Counted from the stretch's first letter, positions 1,206 through 43,625 are shown. The stretch: 51,950 nt of DNA from Candidatus Parvarchaeum acidiphilum ARMAN-4 (GCA_002412065.1 GG730042.1:1-51950), one strand, 5' to 3'. The notes: a model not told the origin generated them from the letters alone. Translations and numbers: made by a program.

Positions 1206-1919
1206 ATGCAAAATAATGACCCATTTGTGGACGTGGATGTAGGTAATATAATAGATGAATATTTAGAGGAAAAATCAAGGCCCAAAACAATCGGAGCATA
1301 TTATCCTAGTGAAATAGGCATGTGCATGCGTAGAAGCTATTACTCTTATTTTATATCAAAACCAACGGAAACCAGCGCACTCAGGATATTTGCCCTTGGA
1401 AATAACGTCCACGAATTTATAGCCAAGGCCCTTAAAGGGTCAAGTACTTTAGCCGTGGCAGAAGAAGAAAAACCTATAAGGATAACATATGCAGATGAAA
1501 ACACGAAATTCACAATATACGGTAGGATAGATGATTACATTGAGACAAAAACAGGCAAAAAGATAATAATAGAAGCTAAATCAACTGGCGATATCACAAA
1601 AGTAAACGAGCCGGATCCAAAACACAAGATGCAAATCTCATTGTATTTAGCGGCACAGAAAGCAGATTACGGCCTTTTAGTCTATGCAGACAAGAAAAAC
1701 TTAGAGATAAAACAGTTCAAGGTAGAATACAACGAAGAAGAGTACAAAAAAGTGATGCAAAGATTCAAAGACCTAGATTACCATTTAAGGAATGAGATAT
1801 TACCGCCCGCTGAATATTATTTTGACAATAAAAAAGTCTGGGAATGCAAGTACTGTCCTTATTACAAAGAATGCATGCAGGCTTTGGCGGATTCAAATTC
1901 TTTGGAGAATTATCAATGA
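1206..1919 (+). CDS. cas4: Solo Cas4-like PD-(D/E)XK (RecB-family) nuclease with Fe-S cysteines
   Basis: N-terminal PSEIGMCMRR, GRIDD...IIEAKS, HKMQISLY, and C-terminal WECKYCPYYKEC (1+3 Cys). Confidence 0.8.
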   Translation: MQNNDPFVDVDVGNIIDEYLEEKSRPKTIGAYYPSEIGMCMRRSYYSYFISKPTETSALRIFALGNNVHEFIAKALKGSSTLAVAEEEKPIRITYADENTKFTIYGRIDDYIETKTGKKIIIEAKSTGDITKVNEPDPKHKMQISLYLAAQKADYGLLVYADKKNLEIKQFKVEYNEEEYKKVMQRFKDLDYHLRNEILPPAEYYFDNKKVWECKYCPYYKECMQALADSNSLENYQ

Positions 1920-4296: not shown

Positions 4297-5433
4297 TTAA
4301 ATTGCTATGTGCAGATAAACTGAAGCAAGATGTCCTACTAGGAAAGTCACAAACGCAGCAGTTAAACTAAGAAGCAACGCTCTTCCAACATACCTAAAGA
4401 CTTTCTCATTGGAGTTTAATGCTATTATCAGCGACGTAAAGGCAATTGCTATTGAAGCTAAGACAACTGATATGACTAAGTTGTAGTAAGTGTTAGATTT
4501 TATAATGGAACCTATAAGGAAACTTATCAGCGGGATAATTGCACCGAATACATAAAAAACGCCTACATACAAAGCATCCTTGAATGGATTCACAGAATCG
4601 TTGCTTGTGTAAACCTTGCCATTCCCACCTATAAAATTCTTTAAAGGGTTGTCTCTTTCGCGCTCAAGCACTTTATAAACTGGATCTTTTTCCTTTTTTA
4701 ATTTTAATATCAAATCCTCCAAGCCTTTGTCAAATTTTTTATAGTTCAAGGAATGCCTCTCTAAATCCTCCTTTAATCTTTCTTTAGCAACCTGTAACTC
4801 CAGCTCTAAGCGGTTTATTCCGCTGAACTCCAGATCTTTTTCAGATTTTGAAGAAAGATAGGCACCAACGGCCATTGAAATCGTGCCTGATAAACCTACT
4901 ATGGTACCAGCAACTGCGATAAGCAGGTTGTTATGTATAGCTCCTGTGAAACCTGCGACTGCGGCCAAGAACTCTACTAATCCATCATTCATCCCAAAAA
5001 CTACATCTCTTATGTGGGATAACACGCCGTTCTCCCAGGATTCCTTTTTAAGTAACCTTTCCTGATACATCTCTTCCACTAAATAGTCCACGACTTTTTC
5101 TCTTTGTTTGTTTGGAATATCTTGAAAAACCTTTGATAGATCCGACATCTTTCTTGTTTCAAGGGAATTTATCAAGCTTAATGTTAAGCCGCTACCAAAT
5201 AGCCTTCTTAGCAGGACAAAAAGGAAAACTTCAACTTTGTTTTTATTTTCCTTGACGGATATGTTCAGTTCTTTGTATATCTCTGTCCATACCTTAATGT
5301 GCTTTACGTCAAGCTCTTTAAGCTCCTTGAGCTTCTTTTTCATCTCTTTGTTTCTTTCAAGTCTCTCAAGTTTTGAATAAAGCTGATAAGACAATCGTTC
5401 TGAGTTCAAAACCTTTTTTATTTCATCCGACAT
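4297..5433 (-). CDS. VIT1/CCC1 family Fe/Mn transporter with N-terminal ferritin-like domain
   Basis: IRDVVFGMNDGLV, SMAVGAYLSSKSE and C-terminal TM helices; rubrerythrin-like N-terminus. Confidence 0.85.
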   Translation of the reverse strand: MSDEIKKVLNSERLSYQLYSKLERLERNKEMKKKLKELKELDVKHIKVWTEIYKELNISVKENKNKVEVFLFVLLRRLFGSGLTLSLINSLETRKMSDLSKVFQDIPNKQREKVVDYLVEEMYQERLLKKESWENGVLSHIRDVVFGMNDGLVEFLAAVAGFTGAIHNNLLIAVAGTIVGLSGTISMAVGAYLSSKSEKDLEFSGINRLELELQVAKERLKEDLERHSLNYKKFDKGLEDLILKLKKEKDPVYKVLERERDNPLKNFIGGNGKVYTSNDSVNPFKDALYVGVFYVFGAIIPLISFLIGSIIKSNTYYNLVISVVLASIAIAFTSLIIALNSNEKVFRYVGRALLLSLTAAFVTFLVGHLASVYLHIAI

Positions 5434-5474
5434 GATTAATCAAAACCTACCTTTAAAATATAAATTTATTCTAA

Positions 5475-5810
5475 CTAGCCGGTAAATGGATGGGTCGGCT
5501 TAGACTTGTCAAAAAATCCCTTGTACTTGTCCCATATCTGCTGGCCGGCCTCTTGCGAAAGAATATCTGTTACTGTTTCTGGCCGCATGAAAACACCCTG
5601 CGCTTGTATAAGTCCATTAAAACGTACTATAACAAAATCATCGTCTTTTGGATTTACATTCCCTATCTCGCATGTTATTATGTTATTATCCCACATTTCT
5701 ATGACTGCTTTTTGTTTTTTATCCACGTTTTTAGAATTGTTTTTGTTAATTACCTTAACGATCTTTCCAATGTGATAAAATACCAATTCCTTTGCTTTTT
5801 TTTCTTCCAT
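5475..5810 (-). CDS. Hypothetical protein (small, beta-rich)
   Basis: ATG-started 111-aa ORF with natural composition; overlapping + strand ORFs look like shadows. Confidence 0.65.
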   Translation of the reverse strand: MEEKKAKELVFYHIGKIVKVINKNNSKNVDKKQKAVIEMWDNNIITCEIGNVNPKDDDFVIVRFNGLIQAQGVFMRPETVTDILSQEAGQQIWDKYKGFFDKSKPTHPFTG

Positions 5811-5963
5811 CTTAATAAACTATAATTTTTTTAATATTAAACGCTATTGTTTATTGCAATTTATGCTTTATTAACCTTGTCTAAAAATTATATTTAAGGA
5901 ATATTAAATAGCTTTTCGCAGGGGTTTAAATATAAATATGACAAAAGGTATTACTTCTTTATT

Positions 5964-6281
5964 GTGGAAACAAAGCCTTTTGTGAAAAAACAAAATGTGA
6001 TGAGGAATACTGACATAACTGCTGAACCTGGCAAAGAATTTGTGTTTAGGTTAAAAGATGGAAAAGAAGTTGGCAGGGCCGGCACATTAAATGGCTTTGA
6101 AAGCCTGATAAGGACTTTGCCTTCGGACTCTTTGGAATTTCATAATAATGGAAAACACTTTTCAGCTTGGCTACGTTACCTCAAGCAGGATAAAATCGCA
6201 AATGCGTTTGACAGGATAGACTCAAAAGGAGAACTATTAAGAAAAGACTTATTAAATGCTATAAAACTTAATAAATTATAA
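5964..6281 (+). CDS. DUF5752-like small protein
   Basis: FVFRLKDG..A.TL..F...I..LP.DSLEFH...HFSAWL pattern. Confidence 0.6.
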   Translation: METKPFVKKQNVMRNTDITAEPGKEFVFRLKDGKEVGRAGTLNGFESLIRTLPSDSLEFHNNGKHFSAWLRYLKQDKIANAFDRIDSKGELLRKDLLNAIKLNKL

Positions 6282-6599
6282 TTTACAGTCTAAAGTAGAA
6301 TTATAGCCGTGTGGATAATCCAACATAAAAACTTTCTTCCCGTCTTTAGCTTTGCAGGAATAAACATAGAAAGGAATAGAATCGGACCAGCCTTGATATC
6401 TTCTCTTGTCAATCTCTACGAACCCCCTCAACGCAAGTTTTAAAGCCTTTATATAATTCAATTTAATCTCTTCAAATTCTTGTGTAGCTTTGTTATAGAC
6501 TTTGACTTTATGTCCTGTTATATAAGTCTTATCCAATAAACTATCCAAATTTGGATTGTACCAAATTGACATTCTTGTCATAAAATTTGATGAAAACAA
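6276..6599 (-). CDS. Hypothetical protein
   Basis: 107-aa ORF with GW..IPFY.YSC...YPHG...C pattern; true start may be a downstream ATG. Confidence 0.6.
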   Translation of the reverse strand: MFSSNFMTRMSIWYNPNLDSLLDKTYITGHKVKVYNKATQEFEEIKLNYIKALKLALRGFVEIDKRRYQGWSDSIPFYVYSCKAKDGKKVFMLDYPHGYNSTLDCKL

Positions 6600-6728
6600 C
6601 TAATATTTAAACCTTTATTTGCATTTTTACATGAAAAGACCATTAACTTAAGATTATTGCTTATTAAACAAACCTCAAAATAGTAAATATAGATAGCCTT
6701 TCAATTCTTAAAAATCTTTTAATCAACA

Positions 6729-8027
6729 CTAATTGGTAAGGTTTAATTCTTCTTTTATTATAAGCTCTGCCTTGTTTATTATTGATGGAGAAAAGGCAAT
6801 GTTTAATTCCCTTGTTCTACCGTATCTCCCGTGGCTTTTTATACGGGACATTACCAAAGAATTATAATCCATGTCTGCAATCAAATCTGAAACTCTTCTA
6901 AATGTCAAACTTTTCAGGCCAAATTTATCTGAAAGCTTTAAGTATGCATCATAAACCTCGCCGCTGTATACTTTTCCCATTCTTTTAGTTCTTGCGACTG
7001 AGATTATAGAGAGAAGAATACATTTACTCTGCCTAGTCATTGATTTTATCATGCCTTCAGTTATGTTTTGCTCAAGTGATTCCGCTGCTGTATCAAGTTC
7101 TTCTTCAGTTATTATTGATTTCCCCAGCTGCTGTGTTCTCTCACCGGCAACCTTCAACAAGTCCAAAGCTTTTCTTATGTCACCGTGCTCCTGGGCAACC
7201 ATTGCAGCGCATTTCCTTAAAACCCCTTCATTCAATGCATTATCATAAAATGCATCTTTAGAGCGGTTTAATAGAATATCAAATATTTCATCTGCATTGT
7301 AAGGCCTGAATATTATCTCTACAGGATTCAAAGAGCTCCTTACTCTCTGATCTAATGATGCTTTAAGATCGATGTTGTTTGAAATTCCGATTATTGCGAT
7401 CTTTGCGTGTTTCAAGGATTCATTCAACCTCAAAAGGCTGTATAATACTCCATCGCCTGCATGCTGTATAAGCTTCTCTATTTCATCCAATACTAGTATA
7501 AGATATGTACTCTCTGCATCTATGGTTTTGACAAGTCTTTTGTATAGGCTGTTAACTGAAAGGCCGCTTTCCGGGACATTTATATTGAAGACAGCACAGA
7601 GATTTGCAATAAGCCTGTATTCAGTGTTATTGTTTTCCAGTCTGCAGTTTATGTAAACCGGAAGCACGTTCGCTTTTTTCTCTTCTGCCGAACTTGCCAA
7701 TTTTTTAGCAACAAATTTTGTTACCAAAGACTTGCCTGTTCCTGAAAAGCCGTATACCAACACATTGGAGATTCCTTCAAACAACAGACTTGGGGCCATT
7801 ATCCTTGAAAGAGTTGCTATTTCATTGTTCCTGTGCATTATGCCTTCCGGGACAAATGAAGAAGACAACACATCTTTGTTCTTGAATATGCGCTTGCTGG
7901 TAAGAAACTCATTGAATATGGCAATAGGATCAACGTTGCTTATTTTATCTGTATCTGTTTTCTGGAAAAAATCATTATTGGATTGAAAGGCTTCCATATG
8001 TTCGTAAATTATTCTATCTTTACTCAT
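6729..8027 (-). CDS. cdc6: Orc1/Cdc6 replication initiator
   Basis: Walker A GFSGTGKS, YINC, Walker B LVLDEIE, RVRSSL, FRPYNADE, GDIRKALD, C-terminal wHTH with GRYGRTR. Confidence 0.95.
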   Translation of the reverse strand: MSKDRIIYEHMEAFQSNNDFFQKTDTDKISNVDPIAIFNEFLTSKRIFKNKDVLSSSFVPEGIMHRNNEIATLSRIMAPSLLFEGISNVLVYGFSGTGKSLVTKFVAKKLASSAEEKKANVLPVYINCRLENNNTEYRLIANLCAVFNINVPESGLSVNSLYKRLVKTIDAESTYLILVLDEIEKLIQHAGDGVLYSLLRLNESLKHAKIAIIGISNNIDLKASLDQRVRSSLNPVEIIFRPYNADEIFDILLNRSKDAFYDNALNEGVLRKCAAMVAQEHGDIRKALDLLKVAGERTQQLGKSIITEEELDTAAESLEQNITEGMIKSMTRQSKCILLSIISVARTKRMGKVYSGEVYDAYLKLSDKFGLKSLTFRRVSDLIADMDYNSLVMSRIKSHGRYGRTRELNIAFSPSIINKAELIIKEELNLTN

Positions 8028-8135
8028 TTAAATAACTATTATTAATTTTAATTATGTCATTCTAATTATATAAACTTAATCACAGTGATTGAAACATAAT
8101 TTTGCTTTATAAATTCATTTAACTAAAAACACAGA

Positions 8136-8349
8136 GACACCTACGTTTCTTATGGAGAATCATCTAAATAATTTTTTATACTGTTTAATCCTATATATAT
8201 CTATATATTCTATATAGAATTATAATAAATATAATAATAAGGCTTCCATAGGAAATATAGGGGTGTTCCATAGGAAATAATTTTCATCAAAGCAGCTCGA
8301 TTGTAAGTCAAATGCAACGACGGTTTGTTCCATAGGAAATAGGGGTGTC
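8136..8349. promoter_or_regulatory. Putative replication origin (oriC): ORB boxes flanking an AT-rich DUE
   Basis: Direct boxes TTCCATAGGAAATATAGGGGTGT (8244-8266), GTTCCATAGGAAATA (8265-8279) and GTTCCATAGGAAATAGGGGTGTC (8327-8349). Inverted box at 8136-8157 reads CTCCATAAGAAACGTAGGTGTC on the minus strand. Nearly pure A/T at 8160-8240. Adjacent to cdc6. Confidence 0.88.
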
Positions 8350-8449
8350 CCTGTACCCCATATATATAGTATTCTTTACTACTAAATAAAAGTAATTTGA
8401 TAGAAAGCTTTAAATATGAGTAACTTCCATAAACTTAAATCAAAAAATT

Positions 8450-10612
8450 ATGGTGCAAAAAAATATCGGCGTTGTAATTTGTATTTCAGTGTTACTAGCA
8501 GTAATACTTTTGTTGTTTGTAAATTCTGGAGTAAGCAATGCTTTTTCCTGTTCAAACCAGAATATAACCTTGACAAATTTCTCTAATTTTGTTTGCACGT
8601 CACAATGGGTAAATGTTCCAGATCCAGTTTATCTTGCTAACGTAAATATAATTGCAAAAGGGATGTTCATAAATAATACCTTTAGTATTACTGGTGATTC
8701 TGTTTTGAATGTTAGCAGAATAATGAACAATGGAACATCCAACATAAATGCAACATTGCTAAGTGGAAGTTTGTTTAAGAATTACGGAACTATTGTTTTG
8801 GAGAGGCCGATTTTCCTCAACTTTACCTATTTCTTTAACAAAGGTTTGATCAGCAATAAGAACTACTTAAACAACGGCGGATATGCTAATAGCTATAATT
8901 CATACGGAGAAAAGAATTATGGCTGTGGCGGAGAGAGCTTTCCAAGCTCCTTTGCAGGAAGCGGCGGCGCGAGTATCTCTTACAGTGCATGCGACGGCGG
9001 CAGTACTTTGGTAGATGGAGGTTCCGGAGAATCGATAGGGAATGAAGGTTATCCTGCAGCTTATTGGAATACCTCTGGAAGTCATGTGTATTCTAAGCTT
9101 TCAAACTACACATTTAATCTAAGCCTGCTGAGCAGTGCTGGCGGGGCCTCATATAACGAAGCAAGCAACGCATATTTATTGAGAGGAGGAAGCGGGGTAT
9201 TTCCTTTGATAATAATAGCAAGGCAGTTTGATAACCTTGGGAAAATAACTAATCAAGGCCAGTCTATAAACTATTCAAAGATACAAAACGCAAGCGATTT
9301 TCTTGATCAAGGAATAGTAGGGGCAGGAAGTGGTGGGATTTTAGAGATAATTTCGCAAGGCTTTATTAATAATGGCACAACGAACGTAAGCGGAGGAAAA
9401 GTCTATTTTAACACTTCAATGCCTTTACCCTACCATTATACAGCCAATGACTTTGGGAACGGCGGCAAAGGAAATGCCTTTTTCTTCAGGGCCGGCAGCA
9501 ATCTTCTATCAAATTCAATAAAGAATTACAGTTTTGGCACTGAGCAGGAAAGCTTTGGCATAAATGATTCAAACAGTTCAAAAGTCAATCTATACAGCTT
9601 AAAGGTTGCTTTTCCAGTTATTTACGGTTGTGATTATGCTTCTTTATACTTGAAGGCCAGCGGCATTTATGACAACAATAGCTTTTCAAAGATCCAGCCA
9701 GTTAATGATGATGATTTCTCGCTGAATTCATCCGATAAGAATATCTCTTTTTCAATGTCAGGAAGCGATCCAATTTCGAAGTATTACAACAGTACAAGCC
9801 TTTTTGTTAATAATCTTTCAAATGACACAACCGTAAATCTGGGCTTTAAAGATACAATACCTGTCAGCGTGTCTTTCCAAAATACTAATAACACAAATTT
9901 CTCCCTGCAATCCGCAAATAATACTTTATTCTCAGGGTCTACTTCACTTCCTTTAACATTCGAATTAAGGCCAGGAAATTATTCTCTTTTCATTGGGAAT
10001 AAATCAGAGAATTACACTTATTATTTATTTGTCCAGAGGAACTGTCTTGGCTACCAAAACATAACCATCCCAGTAGGCCAGGATTATTATGATTATGATT
10101 CATTGAAAATACCTGCAAAGCCGTTAATAGTTTATAAAATGGATCAATCAGTGCTGAAAGTAGTCAAATATGTAGGCATGGACAGCTGCAGTTTCAATGA
10201 TTCACAGCTTTTGGGTCTTGATAGCTCGATATTGCAAAGTCTTTCAGCAATCAACAGGAGCCTGCTAAAAGACGGAAATACAAATTACAGCGAAATCATA
10301 AACAAAGAGGCAAATTACACAAATTACGTGCTGAATAAATATACAAGCAAACCAAAAACTACTGGAAACATATCTATGAACCAAAGCGGTCTGAATCTTT
10401 TGGATTACTTTAACAGCGGGAACTTTACAAAAGAAGTATTCCAGGTAAATAGCAAAGGCACAATAAATCTAAGCTATGGGAGCGGGAGCAAAATACAGAT
10501 AGTGGTGACAAGCAAACCAACACAAAACATTTTAGTGTCTGTGAGCAATACGGTCGTAAAGGCCTTTGCATATGTCCCTTCCCTGTTTCTAGGGTTTTTA
10601 GGAGGGTTATGA
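8450..10612 (+). CDS. Large secreted/surface protein with Gly-rich region and hydrophobic C-terminus
   Basis: Signal peptide, many N-x-S/T sequons, GGxG-rich blocks (AGSGG, GGSG, GAGSGG, GNGGKG), hydrophobic tail VPSLFLGFLGGL. Confidence 0.8.
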   Translation: MVQKNIGVVICISVLLAVILLLFVNSGVSNAFSCSNQNITLTNFSNFVCTSQWVNVPDPVYLANVNIIAKGMFINNTFSITGDSVLNVSRIMNNGTSNINATLLSGSLFKNYGTIVLERPIFLNFTYFFNKGLISNKNYLNNGGYANSYNSYGEKNYGCGGESFPSSFAGSGGASISYSACDGGSTLVDGGSGESIGNEGYPAAYWNTSGSHVYSKLSNYTFNLSLLSSAGGASYNEASNAYLLRGGSGVFPLIIIARQFDNLGKITNQGQSINYSKIQNASDFLDQGIVGAGSGGILEIISQGFINNGTTNVSGGKVYFNTSMPLPYHYTANDFGNGGKGNAFFFRAGSNLLSNSIKNYSFGTEQESFGINDSNSSKVNLYSLKVAFPVIYGCDYASLYLKASGIYDNNSFSKIQPVNDDDFSLNSSDKNISFSMSGSDPISKYYNSTSLFVNNLSNDTTVNLGFKDTIPVSVSFQNTNNTNFSLQSANNTLFSGSTSLPLTFELRPGNYSLFIGNKSENYTYYLFVQRNCLGYQNITIPVGQDYYDYDSLKIPAKPLIVYKMDQSVLKVVKYVGMDSCSFNDSQLLGLDSSILQSLSAINRSLLKDGNTNYSEIINKEANYTNYVLNKYTSKPKTTGNISMNQSGLNLLDYFNSGNFTKEVFQVNSKGTINLSYGSGSKIQIVVTSKPTQNILVSVSNTVVKAFAYVPSLFLGFLGGL

Positions 10613-11229
10613 TGGAAGAAGAACTTAAGCAGCTTTATGAAGCGGTATTGAAAATGAATGAAAAACTGTCGCAGGTAAACAGCAAGAATGAGCAGCTCGA
10701 ATCGCTGATAAATGCAATGTCCCAATATATGCTTTCTAAAAATGATGGGGAAATAACAGAGCAAGAAATGGTCGTACTGGATCCTTTTAACATGAGCGGG
10801 TACAAGAATGTTTCAACTTCAAACGGCAGTGTTTTTAAGGTAAGATCAAAGGGCCTATGTGTAAACGGAAGGCACTCTGTCGATGAAAACTCCAATGTAA
10901 AAATCTGCTCAAAGTGCAATGGTATAATCTGCGAAACACATGACACGGGTTTGAATCCTCCAATGTGCGTGAACTGCATAAAGGATCAGATAAAAGATTT
11001 AGAGCTGCTGGACATTTACATATTAAGTGCAATCAACAACGGAATAAGCATAAACCAGCTAAGGAAGTTGATAAAAGGGTCATATAAGGAATTCAATATC
11101 TCTCAGCAGAAACTTTTAAAAGAAGGGTATATCGACAAGGACCTTCTCTTCAGGAAAATACTGACAACAAAAGGTGCATCTGCTCTATTGCTGGGCAGCA
11201 CGGTATATGACCTTTCATTTATAGGGTAA
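10609..11229 (+). CDS. Coiled-coil + Cys/His Zn-finger + winged-helix protein
   Basis: N-terminal heptads; C..H...CSKC...CETH...CVNC; C-terminal wHTH-like LLKEGYI...LTTKG. ATGA overlap with the upstream gene, preceded by SD-like GGAGG. Confidence 0.75.
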   Translation: MMEEELKQLYEAVLKMNEKLSQVNSKNEQLESLINAMSQYMLSKNDGEITEQEMVVLDPFNMSGYKNVSTSNGSVFKVRSKGLCVNGRHSVDENSNVKICSKCNGIICETHDTGLNPPMCVNCIKDQIKDLELLDIYILSAINNGISINQLRKLIKGSYKEFNISQQKLLKEGYIDKDLLFRKILTTKGASALLLGSTVYDLSFIG

Positions 11230-11234
11230 GATAA

Positions 11235-13121
11235 ATGGAAGAGCAGCTCCAAGGAATAATCAAAAAACTAAGTTTATTCCGGGAATTCACTGACACCAGT
11301 AAGATTGAGGGCCTTATCTCCAGGCTAAGCAAAACAAAAGACCCAGGGATGCAGGTTTTCCTTCTTTCAAATATAATGAAGGAATTTAAGGATCTTGAAG
11401 CGGCGTTTCCAGTTTCGGATCCTTTATTTCCCATCATAAAGAGAAAGGAAGGAATGGAAATCGGCAGTATTTTATATCAAGAACAAAAAATCGGCAGGCT
11501 TTCGCTTTCTCTGGAGGATTTAAACAGAAATATACTTATAGTGGGTTCGACCGGCCATGGTAAAACATCACTGATATATAGTATACTAAAAAAGGCATCC
11601 GAGAACGGTATAAACTATCTTATATTCGACATGAAAAAAGATTACAGGGCCCTGGGTTTGGGCAAAGACTCGGTTTACATTGATGCAAATGACCTGAGGA
11701 TAAACCCTTTAGAGGTTCCTGTAAACACCAAAGAAAAGGAATGGGCAGTGCATTTTGCGGATATTTTTTCAGATAGTTTTTCGCTTCTTATAGGAAGCAG
11801 GGATTATCTTTTGGAAAACACCATAAACCTTTGTTCTTCATGGGACAAAAATTATCCTCCAAGGCTGGCAGATTTGCTGCTTTACATTACCTTGAATGGC
11901 AAAAGAAATGATTACTTTAAGGTTATTGAAGGAAGGTTGAAAAGCCTTGTTTCATCCACTTCTATGTTTGACTGCAACTTGGGTATTTCTTTTGAGAGAA
12001 TGAAGGATAAAAACATTATAATAGGGATTGAAAATGTGGGTATTGCAGAGCAGTATTTCCTTGTTTCGTTTATCCTTTCTTCATTTTATTACTCTAACCT
12101 TGGAATAAGCAGCAGAAAATTCAATAGGCTTGTTGTGATAGACGACGCACATTCAATATTGGATGCAAACAAGGAAAGGGACTACGCTAAAGGGATACCG
12201 TTAATTCATTCAATAATTGCAAAGATAAGAGAGATGGGGTTCGGCTTTATTTTTCCAGAACAGCAGGTTTCGTCCATATTATCAAGCGCTATACAGAATA
12301 CCAACACAAAATTCATAGGAAGAGTAAACCTTTACTCCGATCTTTATAGAATACTGCCGGGCAATGCAAACGTAGTTTCAGATTTTATCTCTAAGTTAAA
12401 CAAGTCGGAGTTTTTGGTTTTTAACGAGTCAATACGGCCTTTTTGTTTGTTTGAAGCTGACAGGGTAAATATTGCAAAGTCGGTAGATCCTTCAATGTTT
12501 GCAGTAAAAACCGCAATGGACAGGCAGTTCCTGAATTTTTTTAAGGCAGACAGTTTTTCCGCAAAAGAAGAAAGTTTTCTCGCTGAAATAAATTCAAACT
12601 ACTTTTTGAATTTGACCCTGCATATGCAGAATTTATCAGAAATTATGGACAAAGAGGAATTTAATTCGATTAAAAACATGTTTTTGAAAAATAAGGTTAT
12701 ATCGCAAGTTTCTCTGGATTTCCCAAGCGGGAAAACCTCCAAGTTCTTATTTATAAATAAAGACTCTAATGGTAAAGCTGGCAGGATAAGAGATTTAAAC
12801 CCGTTAACAGAAGAAGAATTTTTCAGGAATTTATTCAAGTACTTGGTCGTTAATCAGCTGAAAATAAGCAAGTCAAACTTTGAAGAATATGAAGATGGGT
12901 TTTTGATAAAAGGCCTGCTTAAAAAATACATTTTAGTAGATTACAATATTGCAAGTCTTAAAAGAATACTTGAAACAAAATTCGATTCCGTGATATTTTT
13001 AGTAAATGATAATCTGTCTGAGCAGGATGTTCTTGCAGAATTAATAAAGGAAAGCGATCAAAAACAATTGCTTAATATGAAAGCATTAAAGATAGTTCAT
13101 TACAAGGACTTTAAAATTTAG
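11235..13121 (+). CDS. HerA/FtsK/VirB4-like (DUF87) P-loop ATPase
   Basis: NRNILIVGSTGHGKT, IFDMKKDY, INPL, VVIDDAH (Walker B), IREMGFG (Arg finger), Q...S..IQNTNTK. Confidence 0.85.
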   Translation: MEEQLQGIIKKLSLFREFTDTSKIEGLISRLSKTKDPGMQVFLLSNIMKEFKDLEAAFPVSDPLFPIIKRKEGMEIGSILYQEQKIGRLSLSLEDLNRNILIVGSTGHGKTSLIYSILKKASENGINYLIFDMKKDYRALGLGKDSVYIDANDLRINPLEVPVNTKEKEWAVHFADIFSDSFSLLIGSRDYLLENTINLCSSWDKNYPPRLADLLLYITLNGKRNDYFKVIEGRLKSLVSSTSMFDCNLGISFERMKDKNIIIGIENVGIAEQYFLVSFILSSFYYSNLGISSRKFNRLVVIDDAHSILDANKERDYAKGIPLIHSIIAKIREMGFGFIFPEQQVSSILSSAIQNTNTKFIGRVNLYSDLYRILPGNANVVSDFISKLNKSEFLVFNESIRPFCLFEADRVNIAKSVDPSMFAVKTAMDRQFLNFFKADSFSAKEESFLAEINSNYFLNLTLHMQNLSEIMDKEEFNSIKNMFLKNKVISQVSLDFPSGKTSKFLFINKDSNGKAGRIRDLNPLTEEEFFRNLFKYLVVNQLKISKSNFEEYEDGFLIKGLLKKYILVDYNIASLKRILETKFDSVIFLVNDNLSEQDVLAELIKESDQKQLLNMKALKIVHYKDFKI

Positions 13122-13187
13122 CTTATAAAATCAAAGTATCCTGAAATAAACACCTATATAAGATTTTGTTAAGATAAAATAAAAAAT

Positions 13188-13209
13188 GATAGATAATAAT
13201 TTATCTATC
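13188..13209. terminator. Inverted repeat between convergent genes, possible terminator or binding site
   Basis: GATAGATAA-TAAT-TTATCTATC, a perfect 9-bp stem. Confidence 0.4.
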
Positions 13210-13245
13210 GCGCAATCCTCTTACTAGACATTAAGTGACTAAATT

Positions 13246-14370
13246 TTAAAATCCGCCCAAATAAAACAAAAATTCGGCCCAGTTATCCTTTCGTTTCGGT
13301 TTAAGCTTCTTTAATAATTCTATAGTCTCATATCCAGTAAATTCTAAACCATGCTTTATGTTAGGTAAAATGTATCTTGACTCTCCTTTATAGACTTTAT
13401 TATGTGGTAGTGCAAGATCAATGTACCACCAGCCCAACTTTCCATTTAATTGTTTAAAGTGAAGCTCTGAATCTTGCATTCCATCACATGCATTATTACC
13501 AAGTTCATCAACATAAATTTTACTTCTAAATGCATCTTCTCCAAAATCATCCCCTGCCTTTTTACCGTAAACCTTGCAATTTCTTATTTGTTTCAATGCT
13601 TTCTCGCCGGCTTCACCAAAATGTATTTCGCTGTTTTCTGCATAATCCGCTAACCACTCTTCAGCTTTATCAACATAAAGTTTTGATTTTTTCATGCTAT
13701 TGCCTGCACCGAGTCCAGCTTTTTTAGCGAATATTATAGAATGATCCGCACCCTGGCCGAGAAAATCGCTGGCATCATGAACGTATATCGTTGAACCAAC
13801 CGAGTCACGTCCTAAACCCTCGTCAGCTTTGTAAATATGCATCTCTGAGTTAACCATTTCTTTACCTGCTTCATAACCTGCGGTTTTGGCAAATATCTTA
13901 CTATTTACAATTCCTTCTCCAAGATTATTCCCAGCTACATTTACATGTCCTTCAGCATCTCTTAATCCATATAATAACTTGTCTATAGGTCTCGGAGAGT
14001 TTATGTAAACCTTCTCTCTAGGTTTTATAACATTGTTTATTGCTGCAGAAATAAAAATCCCCAAGCCATCAGTTTTATCAATATTATTGTAAACTCTTTC
14101 ATCACCTGCCAAATCTTCAACATCCTTTAATTTGTAATCCAAACCCTTCATCTCTCCGTGCAGGTATTCTTCTCCTACAGCAGTAAAATCTGTTCCAGAT
14201 AGCTTAGAAAATGCATACAACAATGCATCTAAACCCTTCAATCCTTTTTTATTGGTAAACTGAATTGTATTTTTGATATGGCTCTTATAACCTTCTACTA
14301 CTCTTTCGTATGCCTGTACCTCTTCTTGACTTACTGGATAGAAATAAGGCCCCTCTTCGCTTCCTCCCAT
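13246..14370 (-). CDS. Beta-helix repeat protein (FwdC/GltB C-terminal GXGXG-like)
   Basis: About nine tandem 18-aa repeats, e.g. IFAKTAGYEAGKEMVNSE, IYVHDASDFLGQGADHSI, IFAKKAGLGAGNSMKKSK. Confidence 0.7.
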   Translation of the reverse strand: MGGSEEGPYFYPVSQEEVQAYERVVEGYKSHIKNTIQFTNKKGLKGLDALLYAFSKLSGTDFTAVGEEYLHGEMKGLDYKLKDVEDLAGDERVYNNIDKTDGLGIFISAAINNVIKPREKVYINSPRPIDKLLYGLRDAEGHVNVAGNNLGEGIVNSKIFAKTAGYEAGKEMVNSEMHIYKADEGLGRDSVGSTIYVHDASDFLGQGADHSIIFAKKAGLGAGNSMKKSKLYVDKAEEWLADYAENSEIHFGEAGEKALKQIRNCKVYGKKAGDDFGEDAFRSKIYVDELGNNACDGMQDSELHFKQLNGKLGWWYIDLALPHNKVYKGESRYILPNIKHGLEFTGYETIELLKKLKPKRKDNWAEFLFYLGGF

Positions 14371-14515
14371 ATTTTATCATCTCCTTTTTAATTTTAAACA
14401 ACTATCAATAGAATAGAAATAGTATATAAATGTTTCCTTACTATATAATGATAATTTTTACTAGAATAAGTGGTAAAAAAAGAAGACATAAGAATGCATC
14501 TTAATTTTTTTAGTT

Positions 14516-14764
14516 TTAAACTTTGTTATTCTCTTTTAAATCATTGTTTTCAGGATTCTTGTAATTAGATAAAGCGATGGCTGAAACATAAGCTAGCACA
14601 GCTGCTGACCATAATATAGCATAAACAGGTAATTTAGGCATCAAAGGAAGAGCAATTACTCCAGTTAAACCAGATCCATAACTGAAAAATTCAAGGCGTT
14701 CCGCCATTTTATAGTATCTTGATTTTATCAAGCAGAAAGAACTACTTCGGCAGGTGATAGCCAT
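14516..14764 (-). CDS. Small membrane protein, possibly a gene remnant
   Basis: Two hydrophobic segments; start uncertain. Confidence 0.4.
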   Translation of the reverse strand: MAITCRSSSFCLIKSRYYKMAERLEFFSYGSGLTGVIALPLMPKLPVYAILWSAAVLAYVSAIALSNYKNPENNDLKENNKV

Positions 14765-14878
14765 GAGTCTTCAATTTATTAGTGGTACTACTGCACATGT
14801 TAGAAATGAAAGCTAAGGAGAAATAATCAATAACTTAAAAACCAAGGTTTATATCCAACCTCCAATCAATTTATTATC

Positions 14879-15613
14879 ATGGGCCGCAAAGAAAAGCTTG
14901 AAAAAATACTTAAAGATTTGAGCAGCTCATTTGAAAAATCAAAGCTTTTGGAATACATGGATTTTAATCCAAAAAGCTTTATCTTTAGGCCAGAAAAAGA
15001 AAATTTGGATGGAAACCTGGTTTACAATGCGCTAGCTTCTTATGATCCAGAAAAGGATAAATTCTATATACTTAAAGAGCTGTTCAGCCCGGGCCCTTTA
15101 GACAATGCACAGAAAGTAAAAAACCTGGAAAGCCAAAAGGCTATTGTAATGCATGAAGAGGTGCATAGAGCAGTAATAAAATCAGGTTTGCTGTATAAAT
15201 ATCAGAATGACTCTGTAATAAGTTCTACTTTTTGCCTAGATAAAGACCATAGTCTACCGTTTGTTTTAGCTTCTCTTAAATTCAATGGGAGGCTTTCAAA
15301 TTACTCTTATTCTGACAATGAACTTGTTGACTTCGCGGATACTTTCAGTTCTTTAGGCCAGCTTATTGAATACTTAAAAGCCCAAGATTCTGCTGCCATC
15401 CAAAAAAGCCTTTATCTTCTAGATTTAACAGGTTTTAGCGAATCAAAAGAGGAGGTAGTAGAAAAACTGCGTTCGGAGGGGTTAAAATTTAGAGATGGTA
15501 TGATGTTTGCAGTTAGAGGTAAACAAGCACTGGTTTACTTTAAAAAAGCATTTTACAATACTTATTTAGATGATGGTAAAAATGATATTGCCATAAAATA
15601 CAAAAAACTTTAA
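14879..15613 (+). CDS. Hypothetical protein with zincin-like HExxH motif
   Basis: ALASYDP...IVMHEEVHRA. Confidence 0.6.
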   Translation: MGRKEKLEKILKDLSSSFEKSKLLEYMDFNPKSFIFRPEKENLDGNLVYNALASYDPEKDKFYILKELFSPGPLDNAQKVKNLESQKAIVMHEEVHRAVIKSGLLYKYQNDSVISSTFCLDKDHSLPFVLASLKFNGRLSNYSYSDNELVDFADTFSSLGQLIEYLKAQDSAAIQKSLYLLDLTGFSESKEEVVEKLRSEGLKFRDGMMFAVRGKQALVYFKKAFYNTYLDDGKNDIAIKYKKL

Positions 15614-15710
15614 TTGCCGTAAATTACGTATAATCCTAAAAAATTAAAAACCGCTTAAAAATGTATTTAAAAGGAAGAAAAGTTTAATATATACACGGAG
15701 TATAATAACT

Positions 15711-16199
15711 ATGGTAGAAGAAAAAAAGTTTCATTCTGTTTTATCCTCAACTGCTGTTAAGTTATCCGTATATTCTTCTTTCCTAGATTTTGGTTTAGCG
15801 ATATCGGTGTTTTTCTTACAGAGGAAACTCCTACCAATAGCAATGACTTCTTTCCTTTTAAATTTGTTTGATACTGCAATTGCTTATTTAACATTTGCGA
15901 TAATCGGTTTATTCCTTGCTGCAATGGCATTAAAGTTTAAAGAGAGAATTGTAACAATTAAGCCAAGTAATAAGAATTTACAGCAGGCAAGCATAAGAAA
16001 AGTAAAGATATCCTTGCCAAAAGAAAGCTTTAATGATAATAAGCCTAAAGCGGCCATTCTAAAGGTAGTCTCTGGCCATCCAAATAATGAAATAGAAAGA
16101 GTTGTAAGCAAGAACAAAGAAGACTTTATAAAATTCAATGGTGTTTGGTACAGAGTGGCTAAGGACAAATTTGATCAGGTCACAAGGCCGGATTATTAG
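15711..16199 (+). CDS. Two-TM membrane protein
   Basis: Two hydrophobic helices followed by a basic soluble domain. Confidence 0.65.
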   Translation: MVEEKKFHSVLSSTAVKLSVYSSFLDFGLAISVFFLQRKLLPIAMTSFLLNLFDTAIAYLTFAIIGLFLAAMALKFKERIVTIKPSNKNLQQASIRKVKISLPKESFNDNKPKAAILKVVSGHPNNEIERVVSKNKEDFIKFNGVWYRVAKDKFDQVTRPDY

Positions 16200-16242
16200 C
16201 TATAAAAGATAATATTTTAATGATGGAAAAGCTTATAATCAA

Positions 16243-16596
16243 ATGAAAGGACAAGGACTGCCAATTTCAGCTGTAATTATAATAATTTTGGCAGTAGTTA
16301 TTCTTCTTTTCGTGGTTTTATTAGTAATACTTCCTATCTCTAAGACTTCAAACTCGTTAAAACCCCCTTCTTCAAATGTAAGCTCATTTCAATTTGAATG
16401 CAGCACAGACTGCAGCTTAGCTAGTAGCCCAAACCCTGCAAGTACTTCTTTTTGCACAGCGACTTTGCCAGGTTATCCTTCTGTGCACTGCTATAGCACA
16501 ATACCAGGCACAAGCAATTATGTTTATGGTAGTGGTAGCTGCATTTACACAGATTCTTTCGGAAAACAGATAACTGCAGATAGCAGTGACTGCTGA
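16243..16596 (+). CDS. Small pilin-like protein (class III signal peptide), Cys-rich
   Basis: MKGQ followed by a long hydrophobic stretch; six Cys in the mature part. Confidence 0.7.
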   Translation: MKGQGLPISAVIIIILAVVILLFVVLLVILPISKTSNSLKPPSSNVSSFQFECSTDCSLASSPNPASTSFCTATLPGYPSVHCYSTIPGTSNYVYGSGSCIYTDSFGKQITADSSDC

Positions 16597-16746
16597 AAAA
16601 TAATATTTTAATAAAAATCTGTTTTATGCAAAGAAAAGATATAAATTAGCAAATACAAATAGTTTTATGGTTGCAGAATTAAATTTCAGTTTTAGATCTG
16701 AAAAAATAAATTGTTTTCTAACCAAGGAGGGAAGCCTCGAATAGCT

Positions 16747-17538
16747 ATGGTTTCTGTTACGTGGCTCGAAGGTTTTGATCCATCATATATTTTTAAATCA
16801 AGGGAAGATTTTAAGAATTGGCTTTTGTCCCATATAGATCTTACTTATCTCCCACCGTATCTTCCTAGTGACGATCTAAAAGCTTTTTTGGATAAGGCTA
16901 TAAGCTATGGGTTTCAGCGAGTTTGTATCCCGATTACTTCCATCACAAGAGCAGAGGAATTAATAGGTAAGGATAAAAAACTTGAGTTTATCACTTTCAT
17001 TTCTTCATTTCATGGAAATAGGAATCTTGTAGATGAGAAAAAACAGGCTTGCTACACTGCAGTATCTCTGAAGGCAAGTGAAATAGAGTTCAGCCCCGAT
17101 TTATCATTGCTTGCTGACAATCCAGATCTTTTCAAGACAGAAATAAGTTCAATTTTAGATATAATAAAACAGGCTAACAAGGTTTCGAAGGTTTACTTAG
17201 AAATCGATAAACTACCCGATGAGTTGATAGAAAAAGCAATACAATTATCACAGGGCTGCCAGCCAGATTATATAAGTATATTCATAAACCTGCTGGAAGA
17301 AGAGGACTACGATGGTCAAAATCTAAGTTTTTCGAAAGTATGGTTTGAAAAAGTAAACAACTCAATAAAAGACGGCAAGAAAACAAAACTAAAAGTCTAT
17401 GGGAGAATAGACAATTTCAATAACCTCCTTCCCCTTCTTTATCTGGCTACCAAATATAATTGGAGTTTAGATGATATTAGAATAGGAACTGAGTACGGCT
17501 TTGACATACTGGACAGTTTAGACACGTCTTCGCTGTAA
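16747..17538 (+). CDS. DeoC-like (deoxyribose-phosphate aldolase fold) protein with degenerate active site
   Basis: HIDLTYL, YGFQRVCI, ASEIE, KVYLE, LKVYG and RIGT are collinear with DeoC, but DFIKTSTG is replaced by DYISIFIN. ATG 16747 preferred over the TTG at 16711. Confidence 0.7.
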   Translation: MVSVTWLEGFDPSYIFKSREDFKNWLLSHIDLTYLPPYLPSDDLKAFLDKAISYGFQRVCIPITSITRAEELIGKDKKLEFITFISSFHGNRNLVDEKKQACYTAVSLKASEIEFSPDLSLLADNPDLFKTEISSILDIIKQANKVSKVYLEIDKLPDELIEKAIQLSQGCQPDYISIFINLLEEEDYDGQNLSFSKVWFEKVNNSIKDGKKTKLKVYGRIDNFNNLLPLLYLATKYNWSLDDIRIGTEYGFDILDSLDTSSL

Positions 17539-23127: not shown

Positions 23128-23182
23128 GAAATATTTATATCCTTTACTTTCCATCCAATAATATGCCATTTAAAGCCTTAAA
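23128..23182 (+). repeat. Promoter/5' block shared with the paralog at 1048..1102
   Basis: 55-nt match with one mismatch to the inverted copy. Confidence 0.9.
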
Positions 23183-39324: not shown

Positions 39325-39351
39325 TATTAATATTATACCATCTCCAGGCTT

Positions 39352-43623: not shown

Positions 43624-43625
43624 AA

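What the first reader, a model, noticed from the sequence alone, without database searches (positions are those of the whole stretch)
8450..13121. Uncharacterised three-gene operon at oriC: Gly-rich surface protein + Zn-finger/wHTH adaptor + HerA/VirB4-like ATPase
Seen: tightly coupled genes (ATGA overlap, then a 5-bp gap) starting about 100 bp from the last ORB and ending at a hairpin. They combine an exported 720-aa protein, a cytoplasmic coiled-coil/Zn/wHTH protein, and a DUF87-type translocase ATPase with Walker B DD and a roughly 200-aa C-terminal extension. There is no nurA/mre11/rad50, integrase or relaxase nearby. The DNA looks somewhat more G+C-rich than the flanks (by eye, not computed). 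Inference: a membrane-linked DNA or protein translocation machine (Ced/T4SS/T7SS-like transfer or host interaction), or an origin-tethering/segregation module; a defence island is an alternative. I do not recognise this combination as a named system.
Basis: inference. Interest (0 to 1): 0.75.

Follow-up and report, generated by a model that had tools for sequence, protein, structure and literature searches.

The report
Origin-adjacent DNA-motor operon of Parvarchaeum
Beside the replication origin of a tiny acid-mine archaeon sits a conserved, unnamed operon for a sugar-coated surface protein, a zinc/DNA-binding adaptor and a HerA/VirD4-like motor ATPase that probably moves DNA, though its exact job is still open.

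Summary
Three tightly packed genes (A 8450-10612, B 10609-11229, C 11235-13121) start about 100 bp from an ORB cluster next to cdc6 in a Candidatus Parvarchaeum (DPANN) genome.

- **A** is an exported, sequon-rich protein and evolves fast.
- **B** has a coiled coil, eight invariant Cys/His and a probable winged helix.
- **C** is a DUF87/HerA-superfamily ATPase. Its 200-aa tail is homologous to a wHTH plus PD-(D/E)xK-like module of relatives, but the catalytic residues are lost.

B and C are adjacent in 23 of 23 family loci, and again in one other DPANN family. A is a lineage-specific addition. cdc6 adjacency holds only within Parvarchaeaceae (11 of 13 informative loci; 0 of 20 outgroup loci).

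The closest curated families for C are CedD, TraC and VirB4, all far below cut-off. Relatives with an intact tail sit beside an integrase, a NikA-like gene or DNA methylases.

My best reading is a B-C DNA-translocating motor, most likely acting at the envelope (0.35). A chromosome or origin role (0.25), defence and repair remain open. No structure could be predicted. The scan reached the same reading earlier on another Parvarchaeum genome (e1-2783302). I class it as a new variant of a known kind, of moderate interest.

The parts
6729..8027 (-). orc1/cdc6 initiator gene, divergent from the operon
   Evidence: Pfam Cdc6_C 5.2e-20, Cdc6_lid 1.8e-19, AAA. Orthologues are 84-92% identical in close relatives.
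8136..8353 (.). oriC core: three direct ORB copies (8244, 8266, 8328, two with a GGGGTG tail), an A+T-rich stretch (about 8166-8240) and one degenerate inverted ORB (about 8136-8165)
   Evidence: ORB-like TCCA-N1-2-RGAAA motifs (3-7 per spacer) are kept in the cdc6-A spacer of 10 of 10 orthologous loci. The inverted copy and the A+T-rich stretch were read by eye.
8404..8418 (+). candidate BRE/TATA element (AAAGCTTTAAATATG), 32-46 nt before the start codon of A
   Evidence: Read from the sequence. This is inference only and was not tested.
8450..10612 (+). A: exported, probably N-glycosylated surface protein with a conserved Gly/Asn-motif N-terminal third, a variable remainder and a short hydrophobic C-terminal tail
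   Evidence: 39 sequons against 16.4 expected; hydrophobic segments 1-34 and 702-720; 21 invariant columns, all within residues 1-341; no family; single copy; 19 homologues; the 4 that carry a source name are hypothetical proteins of Parvarchaeum/Parvarchaeota.
10609..11229 (+). B: cytoplasmic coiled-coil + two-zinc (C84 H89 C100 C103 C108 H111 C120 C123) + probable winged-helix protein, the constant partner of C
   Evidence: invariant ligands; weak profile hits: CheF C-terminal domain 7e-4, eS27 zinc ribbon 0.004; lead only: Zn_Ribbon_1/TrmB cluster, score 0.75; found in 25 of 39 genomes of the order; 9 of 10 that are at least 90% complete.
11235..13121 (+). C: HerA-FtsK-superfamily ATPase. 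Helical N-terminus (residues 1-70), ATPase core (about 75-420), then a wHTH plus catalytically degenerate PD-(D/E)xK-like tail (about 425-628)
   Evidence: DUF87 41.6 bits, TrwB_AAD_bind 25.4 bits; CedD is the best family in 24 of 25 members; invariant Walker A/B, Q343 Q344; PDB HerA 6.5e-7; tail homology; no Pfam family on the tail.
13188..13209 (.). 9-bp A+U-rich hairpin between the convergent genes C and D374
   Evidence: spacer z -2.3. Its function was not tested.

Best explanation
B and C form a two-part DNA-handling motor.

C assembles as a HerA/VirD4-type ring ATPase that pumps double-stranded DNA. It holds DNA through its own C-terminal winged helix and a nuclease-fold domain that has lost its catalytic residues, so it binds rather than cuts. 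B is a coiled-coil (probably dimeric) protein with two zinc sites and a winged helix. It acts as the adaptor that brings the motor to its DNA or to its site of action.

The family looks derived from mobile-element ATPase-nucleases. In Parvarchaeaceae it became a fixed, vertically inherited chromosomal gene pair. In Parvarchaeum it is co-transcribed with a fast-evolving surface glycoprotein (A).

The role I think most likely is CedD/coupling-protein-like: moving DNA across or at the cell envelope, for example DNA uptake from a host or neighbour.

**Shown:** gene order, conservation, ATPase motifs, tail homology and the loss of nuclease residues.
**Inferred:** ring assembly, B-C binding, DNA as the substrate, and the envelope as the site of action.

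I put the DNA-motor layer alone at about 0.65. The whole statement, including the envelope role, is at 0.35.
For: - ATPase family: DUF87 is above the Pfam cut-off, and Walker A/B and Q343 Q344 are invariant.
- CedD (the VirD4-like DNA-import ATPase; passages of PMC11823120 read) is the best NCBIfam model for 24 of 25 members. TraC matches 22 of 25, HerA models at most 5 of 25 each and CedB 3 of 25.
- The other DUF87 paralogues of the same genome best match HerA instead.
- tblastn against plasmids hit at least 5000 records, 4762 of them conjugative, but over the ATPase core only.
- B abuts C in 23 of 23 family loci, and again in G068 of another family.
- The tail of C is homologous to a wHTH + PD-(D/E)xK-like module. 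Relatives with the intact-looking module lie beside an integrase plus a NikA-like gene (G380) or two DNA methylases (G087).
- Envelope genes lie alongside: A in 19 of 20 family loci, and a 63-aa TM protein in G068. Small TM ORFs lie downstream on the same strand in 10 of 20 outgroup loci, at 0.58 per kb (one strand) against 0.26 per kb elsewhere (both strands).
- A metatranscriptome contig bridges the A/B junction at 10420-10696. This is weak, because contigs cannot prove a single transcript.
- Vertical inheritance: the family clade has 99 support and f17 and f36 are each monophyletic (quick tree).
Against: - All matches to CedD, TraC, VirB4 and CedB are far below curated cut-offs (46.8 against 600 bits for CedD). 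No CedB or CedD reached its cut-off in 5 of 5 Parvarchaeum genomes.
- Neither B nor C has a TM segment, and A has no cytoplasmic domain, so no membrane link is visible.
- No VirB6/CedA-like channel, second VirB4-type ATPase or relaxase was seen in the window.
- The small TM ORFs downstream in the outgroups share no sequence similarity across loci (0 hits) and may be spurious in A+T-rich DNA.
- A is absent from genus g3 and from G068, so it is not needed by B-C.
- No RNA contig was listed on C (3 records were not shown).
- No structure was obtained, so the ring assembly, the winged helices and the nuclease fold all rest on sequence profiles only.
Confidence: 0.35

Rival explanations
1. Intracellular chromosome motor. 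B-C acts on the chromosome itself near the origin, in segregation, decatenation or origin positioning, as an FtsK-like function in a lineage without FtsK. B and the tail of C would read origin-proximal DNA.
For: - The operon lies beside oriC/cdc6 in the window and in 11 of 13 relatives' loci with enough flank.
- In genus g3 the arrangement is rebuilt (ORBs, then cdc6, B and C on one strand, with no A), yet B-C stays within about 1.5 kb of the ORBs.
- The pair is single-copy and vertically inherited. It is present in 9 of 10 genomes of the order that are at least 90% complete.
- The nuclease residues are lost, so the tail binds rather than cuts.
- Winged helices behind a pumping ATPase recall the gamma domain of FtsK (recalled, not tested).
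Against: - 0 of 20 outgroup loci have cdc6 within about 6 kb. Two family loci (G026, G032) also lack it. Adjacency may therefore be inherited gene order only.
- Distribution in the class is patchy: 59 of 400 at E <= 1e-25, and 14 of 77 in f17. That does not fit an essential segregation function.
- Pfam FtsK_SpoIIIE scores 12.9 bits against a cut-off of 24.
- Co-transcription with an exported protein is left unexplained.
Confidence: 0.25
2. Defence module. A HerA-type ATPase with an effector tail guards against viruses or plasmids, as in the HerA-based anti-phage systems.
For: - PADLOC mad8 matches at 2.7e-14 (51.4 bits), and several HerA defence models match weakly.
- PDB profile hits include a HerA central domain-containing protein (8wiv) and DptH.
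- The relative in G087 lies beside two DNA methylases.
Against: - No PADLOC hit at E <= 0.01 for A, B or the two downstream genes; B has only a 0.03 CARF hit.
- The position is fixed, the gene is vertically inherited and it is present in 9 of 10 genomes of the order that are at least 90% complete, unlike defence islands.
- The nuclease-like tail has lost the conserved acidic residues.
- No relatives were found in viral contigs.
Confidence: 0.1
3. DNA-repair helicase. C replaces the missing HerA-NurA end-resection pair, with the nuclease-fold tail standing in for NurA.
For: - NurA was not found in 5 of 5 Parvarchaeum genomes, four of them 93-100% complete. The same search found it in 7 of 14 control genomes.
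- C is HerA-superfamily.
- The tail has a nuclease fold by profile homology.
Against: - The catalytic residues of the tail are not kept in Parvarchaeaceae.
- The other 1-2 DUF87 paralogues per genome match HerA models better than C does.
- C best matches CedD and TraC, not HerA.
Confidence: 0.1
4. A is an independent surface (S-layer-like or adhesin) gene that merely shares a promoter with B-C. The 'three-gene system' is really a two-gene system plus a passenger. This reading does not exclude any of the above.
For: - B-C occurs without A in genus g3 and in G068.
- A evolves much faster: 50-54% identity where B and C are 73-83%.
- A has no cytoplasmic part.
- Outgroup families have a different upstream partner, an all-coiled-coil protein with no similarity to B.
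Against: The stop of A lies within -4 to +13 nt of the start of B in 19 of 20 family loci with flank, kept over deep divergence of A (about 25% identity). This suggests selection for coupled expression.
Confidence: 0.45

Closest known systems
CedD / TedD, the VirD4-like ATPase of the crenarchaeal Ced/Ted DNA-import systems (PMC11823120, passages read; PMC9905601, search listing only)
   Same: HerA-FtsK-superfamily ATPase and the best-scoring curated family for 24 of 25 members. It is chromosomal rather than plasmid-borne. Some CedD orthologues also lack a TM anchor, according to the paper.
   Different: The score is 46.8 bits against a cut-off of 600. No CedB reached its cut-off (0 of 5 genomes), and CedA/CedA1 were not identified. 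C carries a wHTH + dead-nuclease tail and has the B partner; in the passages I read, neither is mentioned for CedD. The phylum is different (DPANN).
Conjugative VirB4/TraC and VirD4/TrwB/TraG ATPases, including those of Sulfolobales plasmids such as pAH1
   Same: The ATPase core is similar: TraC 1.3e-9, and TrwB_AAD_bind is above the Pfam cut-off. tblastn hits were mostly to conjugative plasmids. pAH1 DUF87 proteins hit at 23% identity.
   Different: Only the core matches: at most 61% of the query and at most 27% identity. There is no TM anchor, no relaxase and no T4SS gene set nearby. The gene is chromosomal and vertically inherited.
HerA of the HerA-NurA repair complex, and HerA of anti-phage systems
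   Same: DUF87 domain. PDB profile hits to Sulfolobus HerA (4d2i, 6.5e-7) and to other HerA-named chains (8wiv, 8xau).
   Different: NCBIfam HerA models match at most 5 of 25 members each, at 1e-5 to 1e-6. NurA was not found. The N-terminus is helical by sequence, and a HAS barrel was not tested. No effector partner was found.
Chromosomal relaxase-less T4SS of Patescibacteria (PMC12102498, passages read)
   Same: The concept is parallel: an ultra-small epibiont keeps a chromosomal DNA-transfer-type ATPase without a relaxase, possibly for uptake or host interaction.
   Different: That system has a true VirB4 with further T4SS components. Here there is only one divergent ATPase, and no homology beyond the superfamily is shown.
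HerA-like ATPases (arCOG00280) of archaeal 'dark matter' islands and integrated elements (PMC4158269, passages read)
   Same: HerA-like ATPases are common on archaeal mobile elements. Relatives of C lie beside an integrase and a NikA-like gene.
   Different: The Parvarchaeaceae copy is not in an island. It lies among housekeeping genes at oriC. The arCOG assignment was not tested.

Membership tests
HerA-FtsK superfamily (Pfam DUF87, PF01935) | Match above the Pfam gathering score | tested here: met
   41.6 bits against 23.2. DUF87 was found in 19 of 21 wider-family proteins scanned.
HerA-FtsK superfamily (Pfam DUF87, PF01935) | Intact Walker A and Walker B motifs | tested here: met
   G107 H108 G109 K110 T111 and D303 D304 A305 H306 are invariant in 25 sequences.
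Repair HerA (HerA-NurA) | Equivalog-level match to HerA models | tested here: not met
   HerA_Thermprot scores 16.3 bits against a cut-off of 800. Only 5 of 25 members match it at E <= 1e-3.
Repair HerA (HerA-NurA) | NurA partner gene | tested here: not met
   PF09376 was found in 0 of 5 Parvarchaeum genomes, while 7 of 14 control genomes were positive.
Repair HerA (HerA-NurA) | N-terminal HAS-barrel domain | not testable with these tools
   Structure prediction was never accepted (13 tries), so no model exists.
Ced/Ted DNA-import system | CedD equivalog | tested here: not met
   Best 46.8 bits (60.1 in G026) against a cut-off of 600.
Ced/Ted DNA-import system | CedB (VirB4-like) ATPase in the genome | tested here: not met
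   NF041017 was over the cut-off in 0 of 5 genomes. The only weak hits are to C itself.
Ced/Ted DNA-import system | CedA channel and CedA1/TedC pilin | not tested
   I had no model accession for them. F162 (2-3 TM) and G117 (pilin-like signal) lie downstream but match no family.
T4SS coupling protein (VirD4/TrwB) | TrwB_AAD_bind domain | tested here: inconclusive
   25.4 bits against 20.5, but only residues 85-160 around the P-loop are matched.
T4SS coupling protein (VirD4/TrwB) | N-terminal membrane anchor | tested here: not met
   No hydrophobic segment in C.
T4SS coupling protein (VirD4/TrwB) | Relaxase and T4SS genes nearby | tested here: not met
   None among the 48 window ORFs scanned with Pfam.
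FtsK/SpoIIIE | FtsK_SpoIIIE domain above the cut-off | tested here: not met
   12.9 bits against 24.
PADLOC defence systems (MADS mad8, HerA types) | Complete system: the ATPase plus its partner genes | tested here: not met
   Only C matches (mad8, 51.4 bits). A and the two downstream genes have no hit, and B has only a 0.03 CARF hit.
PD-(D/E)xK nuclease (tail of C) | Homology to a nuclease-fold module | tested here: inconclusive
   hhalign gives 97.4%, E 1.2e-11 to the tail of relatives. Those tails hit AHJR-like, PDDEXK_3 and VRR_NUC only below cut-off (E 0.006-0.013).
PD-(D/E)xK nuclease (tail of C) | Conserved catalytic acidic/lysine residues | tested here: not met
   H567, E588, D597 and E610, nearly invariant in the outgroup alignment, have no conserved counterparts in the 25 Parvarchaeaceae sequences.

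The most novel reading that the evidence does not exclude
A mobile-element DNA-transfer ATPase-nuclease was domesticated by Parvarchaeaceae. Its nuclease was switched off, it gained a zinc/winged-helix adaptor, and it was locked beside the replication origin under one promoter with a host-facing surface protein. The result would be a minimal, chromosomally encoded machine by which an ultra-small symbiont takes up host or neighbour DNA (for nucleotides or repair). It would be an archaeal counterpart of the relaxase-less T4SS of Patescibacteria, built from different parts.
Probability: 0.15. Interest if true: 0.8.

Novelty: new variant of a known kind. Interest (0 to 1): 0.5.

Why it matters
DPANN archaea depend on hosts and lack many biosynthetic routes, and how they obtain DNA or nucleotides, or how they segregate their tiny chromosomes, is unknown. 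This work identifies a conserved gene pair found in 9 of 10 genomes of the order that are at least 90% complete. It encodes a pumping ATPase with a disarmed nuclease tail and a dedicated zinc/winged-helix partner, and it sits at the origin next to a surface glycoprotein. That gives a concrete, testable candidate for one of those functions. It also illustrates how a mobile-element motor may be domesticated. The wider ATPase family (212 representatives at E <= 1e-30) has, as far as my searches show, no described function.

Tried and rejected
- **Structure prediction.** Structure prediction for C (A2) and B (A1) was never accepted. There are therefore no models, no fold search and no test of the HAS barrel, winged helices or nuclease fold.
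- **B-C complex.** Complex prediction on B + C gave 'no answer' (score 0.00). This is not evidence either way.
- **Wider loci.** The search for related loci in genome contigs failed with alignments A3 and A4 because no stretch was conserved enough. I used the genome search instead.
- **Viral contigs.** 116 pattern matches, none confirmed.
- **Phage records.** One weak ATPase-core hit.
- **Tail of C against PDB.** The profile found only ParG at E 0.73.
- **ESM Atlas.** For A there was no usable feature hit and TM-scores were at most 0.28. For B there was one sub-threshold lead at 0.75.
- **B against the outgroup partner.** hhalign of B against the outgroup's upstream coiled-coil partner gave probability 0.2%. 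They are not detectably related.
- **Run X1.** It is labelled RNA but gives a flat depth of about 107-116 and one 11.9-kb contig across genes and spacers. I treat it as DNA-like and not as evidence of transcription.
- **No RNA contig listed on C in X2**. A part without cover proves nothing.
- **Foreign origin by G+C.** Rejected: the gene-level z-scores are 0.0 to 1.6.

Full report
**Where the window comes from.** The window is contig C5 of a 791-kb, 44-contig, 73%-complete genome. Homologues of its proteins carry the source names Candidatus Parvarchaeum, Parvarchaeota and ARMAN-5. It is therefore an ultra-small DPANN archaeon of acid mine drainage. Two sequencing runs that hold the stretch are also labelled mine drainage metagenome.

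**The observation.**
A is 8450-10612 (720 aa). B is 10609-11229 (206 aa) and overlaps A by ATGA. C is 11235-13121 (628 aa), 5 nt after B.
- Upstream, on the other strand, lies orc1/cdc6 (6729-8027; Cdc6_C 5e-20).
- The 420-bp spacer holds three exact copies of TTCCATAGGAAATA at 8244, 8266 and 8328, and nowhere else in the window. With 3 mismatches allowed, the 12 matches equal chance expectation (13.2), so only the exact cluster is meaningful.
- By eye the spacer also shows an A+T-rich stretch and one degenerate inverted copy at about 8136-8165.
- The same ORB-like motif (3-7 copies) is kept in the cdc6-A spacer of 10 of 10 orthologous loci. This is a credible oriC.
- The 'hairpin' after C is a 9-bp A+U-rich stem at 13188-13209 between convergent genes (z -2.3 for the spacer). 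It is real but not a classical terminator.
- The impression of raised G+C is marginal. A, B and C have z-scores of 1.1, 1.6 and 0.0 against 48 ORFs of the window. Only the GC3 of B stands out (z 3.1).
- The rest of the window is housekeeping: Fe-S cluster assembly, glycolysis, ribosomal proteins and a type IV pilus ATPase locus. No integrase, relaxase, NurA, Mre11 or Rad50 family was found.

**The three proteins.**
- **A.** It has a hydrophobic N-terminus and a short hydrophobic tail. It carries 39 N-X-S/T sequons where composition shuffles give 16.4 +/- 3.4. It matches no Pfam, NCBIfam or PADLOC family and is single-copy. By the word-based search it has relatives only among Parvarchaeum-type proteins (19, none with a functional name). 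Its first third, with GSGGG/GAGGGG-type motifs, holds all 21 invariant columns. The rest is highly variable.
- **B.** It has no hydrophobic segment. A heptad-like N-terminal 45 residues is followed by eight invariant ligands (C84 H89 C100 C103 C108 H111 C120 C123), enough for two zinc ions. A C-terminal 80 residues gives weak profile hits to the C-terminal domain of the archaeal adaptor CheF (7e-4), and the zinc region to the eS27 zinc ribbon (0.004).
- **C.** It is a DUF87/HerA-superfamily ATPase (41.6 bits; TrwB_AAD_bind 25.4 bits, both above cut-off). Walker A, Walker B (DDAH) and a QQ motif are invariant. The profile hits the solved HerA structure 4d2i at 6.5e-7.

**Conservation.**
- C was found in 24 of 35 other genomes of the family. 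Outside the family there was only one borderline hit in 24 genomes of the class.
- The B profile was found in 25 of 39 genomes of the order, which is a single family. It was found in 9 of 10 genomes that are at least 90% complete.
- The cases with only one of the two genes are all at contig ends or are fragments.
- In the 20 loci fetched first, B lies directly before C in 20 of 20. Three more genus-g2 loci show the same.
- An A-like exported, sequon-rich ORF ends within -4 to +13 nt of the start of B in 19 of 20 loci that have upstream sequence.
- The exception is genus g3 (G035). There the order is ORBs, cdc6, B, C on one strand, with no A.
- cdc6 is the neighbour in 11 of 13 relatives' loci with enough flank. 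G026 and G032 lack it.
- In close relatives, identity to the window proteins is 73-83% for B and C but 50-54% for A.

**Beyond the family.**
- In 361 further genomes of the class, the B profile gave one credible hit: G068, E 2e-9. The remaining hits were short and at E >= 1.8e-4.
- In G068 a 197-aa coiled-coil/Zn/wHTH protein again overlaps the start of a C-like ATPase. It is preceded by a 63-aa membrane protein and an AAA ATPase.
- A profile of C against 1.84 billion representatives found 5647 proteins at E <= 1e-3 and 212 at E <= 1e-30. After about ten Parvarchaeaceae-level rows the scores fall from about 710 to 359 and then about 265 bits.
- These outgroup proteins (590-730 aa) have the same ATPase, followed by a winged helix and a module with nearly invariant H, E, D and E residues. 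That is the pattern of a PD-(D/E)xK nuclease. Pfam supports this only below cut-off: AHJR-like 0.013, PDDEXK_3 0.01, VRR_NUC 0.006.
- The tail of the Parvarchaeaceae proteins is homologous to this module (hhalign 97.4%, E 1.2e-11), but the putative catalytic positions are not conserved.
- The wider family occurs in 59 of 400 class genomes at E <= 1e-25: 25 of 38 in the family, 14 of 77 in f17, and patchy elsewhere.
- In 20 outgroup loci, none has cdc6 within about 6 kb.
- Sixteen of the 20 have an upstream all-coiled-coil protein of about 150 aa that is unrelated to B.
- Ten of the 20 have small TM ORFs downstream on the same strand. These share no similarity across loci, so this is a weak hint.
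- Two long-branch members with the best-preserved tail lie beside an integrase, a NikA-like gene (23.2 bits, under its cut-off of 27) and a HicB-like gene (G380), or beside two DNA methylases (G087).
- A quick maximum-likelihood tree has the Parvarchaeaceae clade at 99 support with g3 basal. f17 and f36 are each monophyletic, and the two mobile-context members sit together apart. The careful search did not finish, and the G035 branch is long. The tree fits vertical inheritance within families.

**Which kind of ATPase.**
- Across the 25 aligned members, the NCBIfam model matched most often and best is CedD (24 of 25, best 3e-19). Next come TraC (22), a VirB4 model (16), HerA models (at most 5 each) and CedB (3).
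- CedD is the VirD4-like ATPase shown to be essential for DNA import in Sulfolobus (PMC11823120, passages read).
- All scores are far under curated cut-offs, for example 46.8 against 600 bits.
- No CedB or CedD reached its cut-off in 5 Parvarchaeum genomes.
- The other one or two DUF87 paralogues per genome best match HerA instead.
- NurA was not found in 5 of 5 genomes.
- Plasmid tblastn hits were numerous (at least 5000 records, 4762 conjugative) but cover only the ATPase core at 27% identity or less.
- Viral contigs gave nothing and phage records gave one weak hit.
- PADLOC gave only single-gene hits for C (mad8 51.4 bits, HerA models).

**Expression.** One metatranscriptome run (X2) yields short contigs on cdc6, on A, across the A/B junction (10420-10696) and on B. 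None is listed on C, and 3 records were not shown. The other 'RNA' run is flat and contiguous like DNA. This is weak support that A and B are expressed and possibly co-transcribed.

**Reading.**
- What is shown is a conserved B-C gene pair that encodes an intact pumping ATPase with DNA-binding-type appendages and a dedicated zinc/winged-helix partner. In Parvarchaeum it is tightly coupled to a surface glycoprotein gene at oriC.
- I infer a DNA-translocating motor (about 0.65).
- I favour a CedD/coupling-protein-like role at the envelope (0.35 for the whole statement). The reasons are the family affinities, the mobile-element relatives and the recurrent envelope genes alongside.
- Against this, there is no visible membrane link and no channel or second ATPase.
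- The chromosome/origin-motor reading (0.25) rests on adjacency that is family-specific. Defence (0.1) and repair (0.1) fit less well.
- Independently of these, A may be a passenger (0.45).
I re-derived its main points here on this DNA.

**Prior description.**
- My searches found no description of this operon or of the wider ATPase family.
- The passages I searched in PMC10134863 with six terms (pili, secretion, DNA repair, S-layer, conjugat, competence) do not mention it.
- PMC4158269 lists HerA-like ATPases only in general terms.
- PMC12102498 offers the Patescibacteria parallel.
- Supplements were not consulted, and subscription journals are not covered.

**Limits.** No structure prediction was possible. 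The B-C complex job gave no answer. Organism names for the wider family could not be obtained. The reference phylogeny of the ATPase was not built, because no reference sequences were on hand.

Noticed in passing
Relatives' loci L021, L022, L024, L026, L027, L029, L034, L036-L040 (contig ends): In many relatives the contig breaks inside or within a few kb of this operon, often inside the A gene. This may reflect strain-level hypervariability of the surface protein A, or assembly trouble at oriC.
   Followed up: no
G000:C4, locus L106:1360-3559: A second DUF87 ATPase of the same genome (439 aa, best NCBIfam match HerA) is followed, 1 nt after its stop, by another exported, Asn/Ser-rich 292-aa protein. 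This is a second pairing of a HerA-like ATPase with a surface protein.
   Followed up: partly
window 15711-16596: F162 (2-3 TM helices plus a soluble tail) and G117 (a pilin-like hydrophobic N-terminus, MKGQGLP..., with a Cys-rich tail) have tblastn matches in 8 of the 20 relatives' loci, downstream of C (directly after C in 4, behind D374/E244 in 3, about 1.5 kb on in 1). In this window D374 (- strand) and E244 lie between C and F162. Neither matches a family.
   Followed up: partly
window 13246-14370 (-): D374 is a repeat-rich protein with no family. tblastn finds it in only 3 of the 20 relatives' loci, so it is a variable insertion between C and E244.
   Followed up: no
window 34988-41772 (-): A type IV pilus/archaellum-like cluster: a 746-aa T2SSE-family ATPase (5.5e-18), a 705-aa protein with no family, and an 806-aa exported subtilase.
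   Followed up: no
window 23163-24701 (+): A 512-aa protein with a class III (pilin-type) signal sequence (...KRSQSALEYMMTY...) and no Pfam family. Similar pilin-like genes lie near the operon in L028, L030 and L031.
   Followed up: no
Outgroup loci L090, L092, L105: In family f36 the C-like gene pair lies next to a small ferredoxin-like ORF, a ribosomal-protein-like ORF and a roughly 450-aa ORF. By eye, from N-terminal sequence only, these look like eS1/S3Ae and a RecJ/DHH-family protein. They were not scanned.
   Followed up: no
window 5000-17000, run X1: A public run labelled as transcriptomic holds the whole region as one 11.9-kb contig at flat depth. It behaves like DNA and may be the sample the genome was assembled from.
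   Followed up: no
window 1206-1919 and 43291-43629: A PD-(D/E)XK nuclease-family gene (1.8e-9) and an Hjc Holliday-junction resolvase gene (2.6e-8) lie elsewhere in the window. Neither is adjacent to the operon.
   Followed up: no
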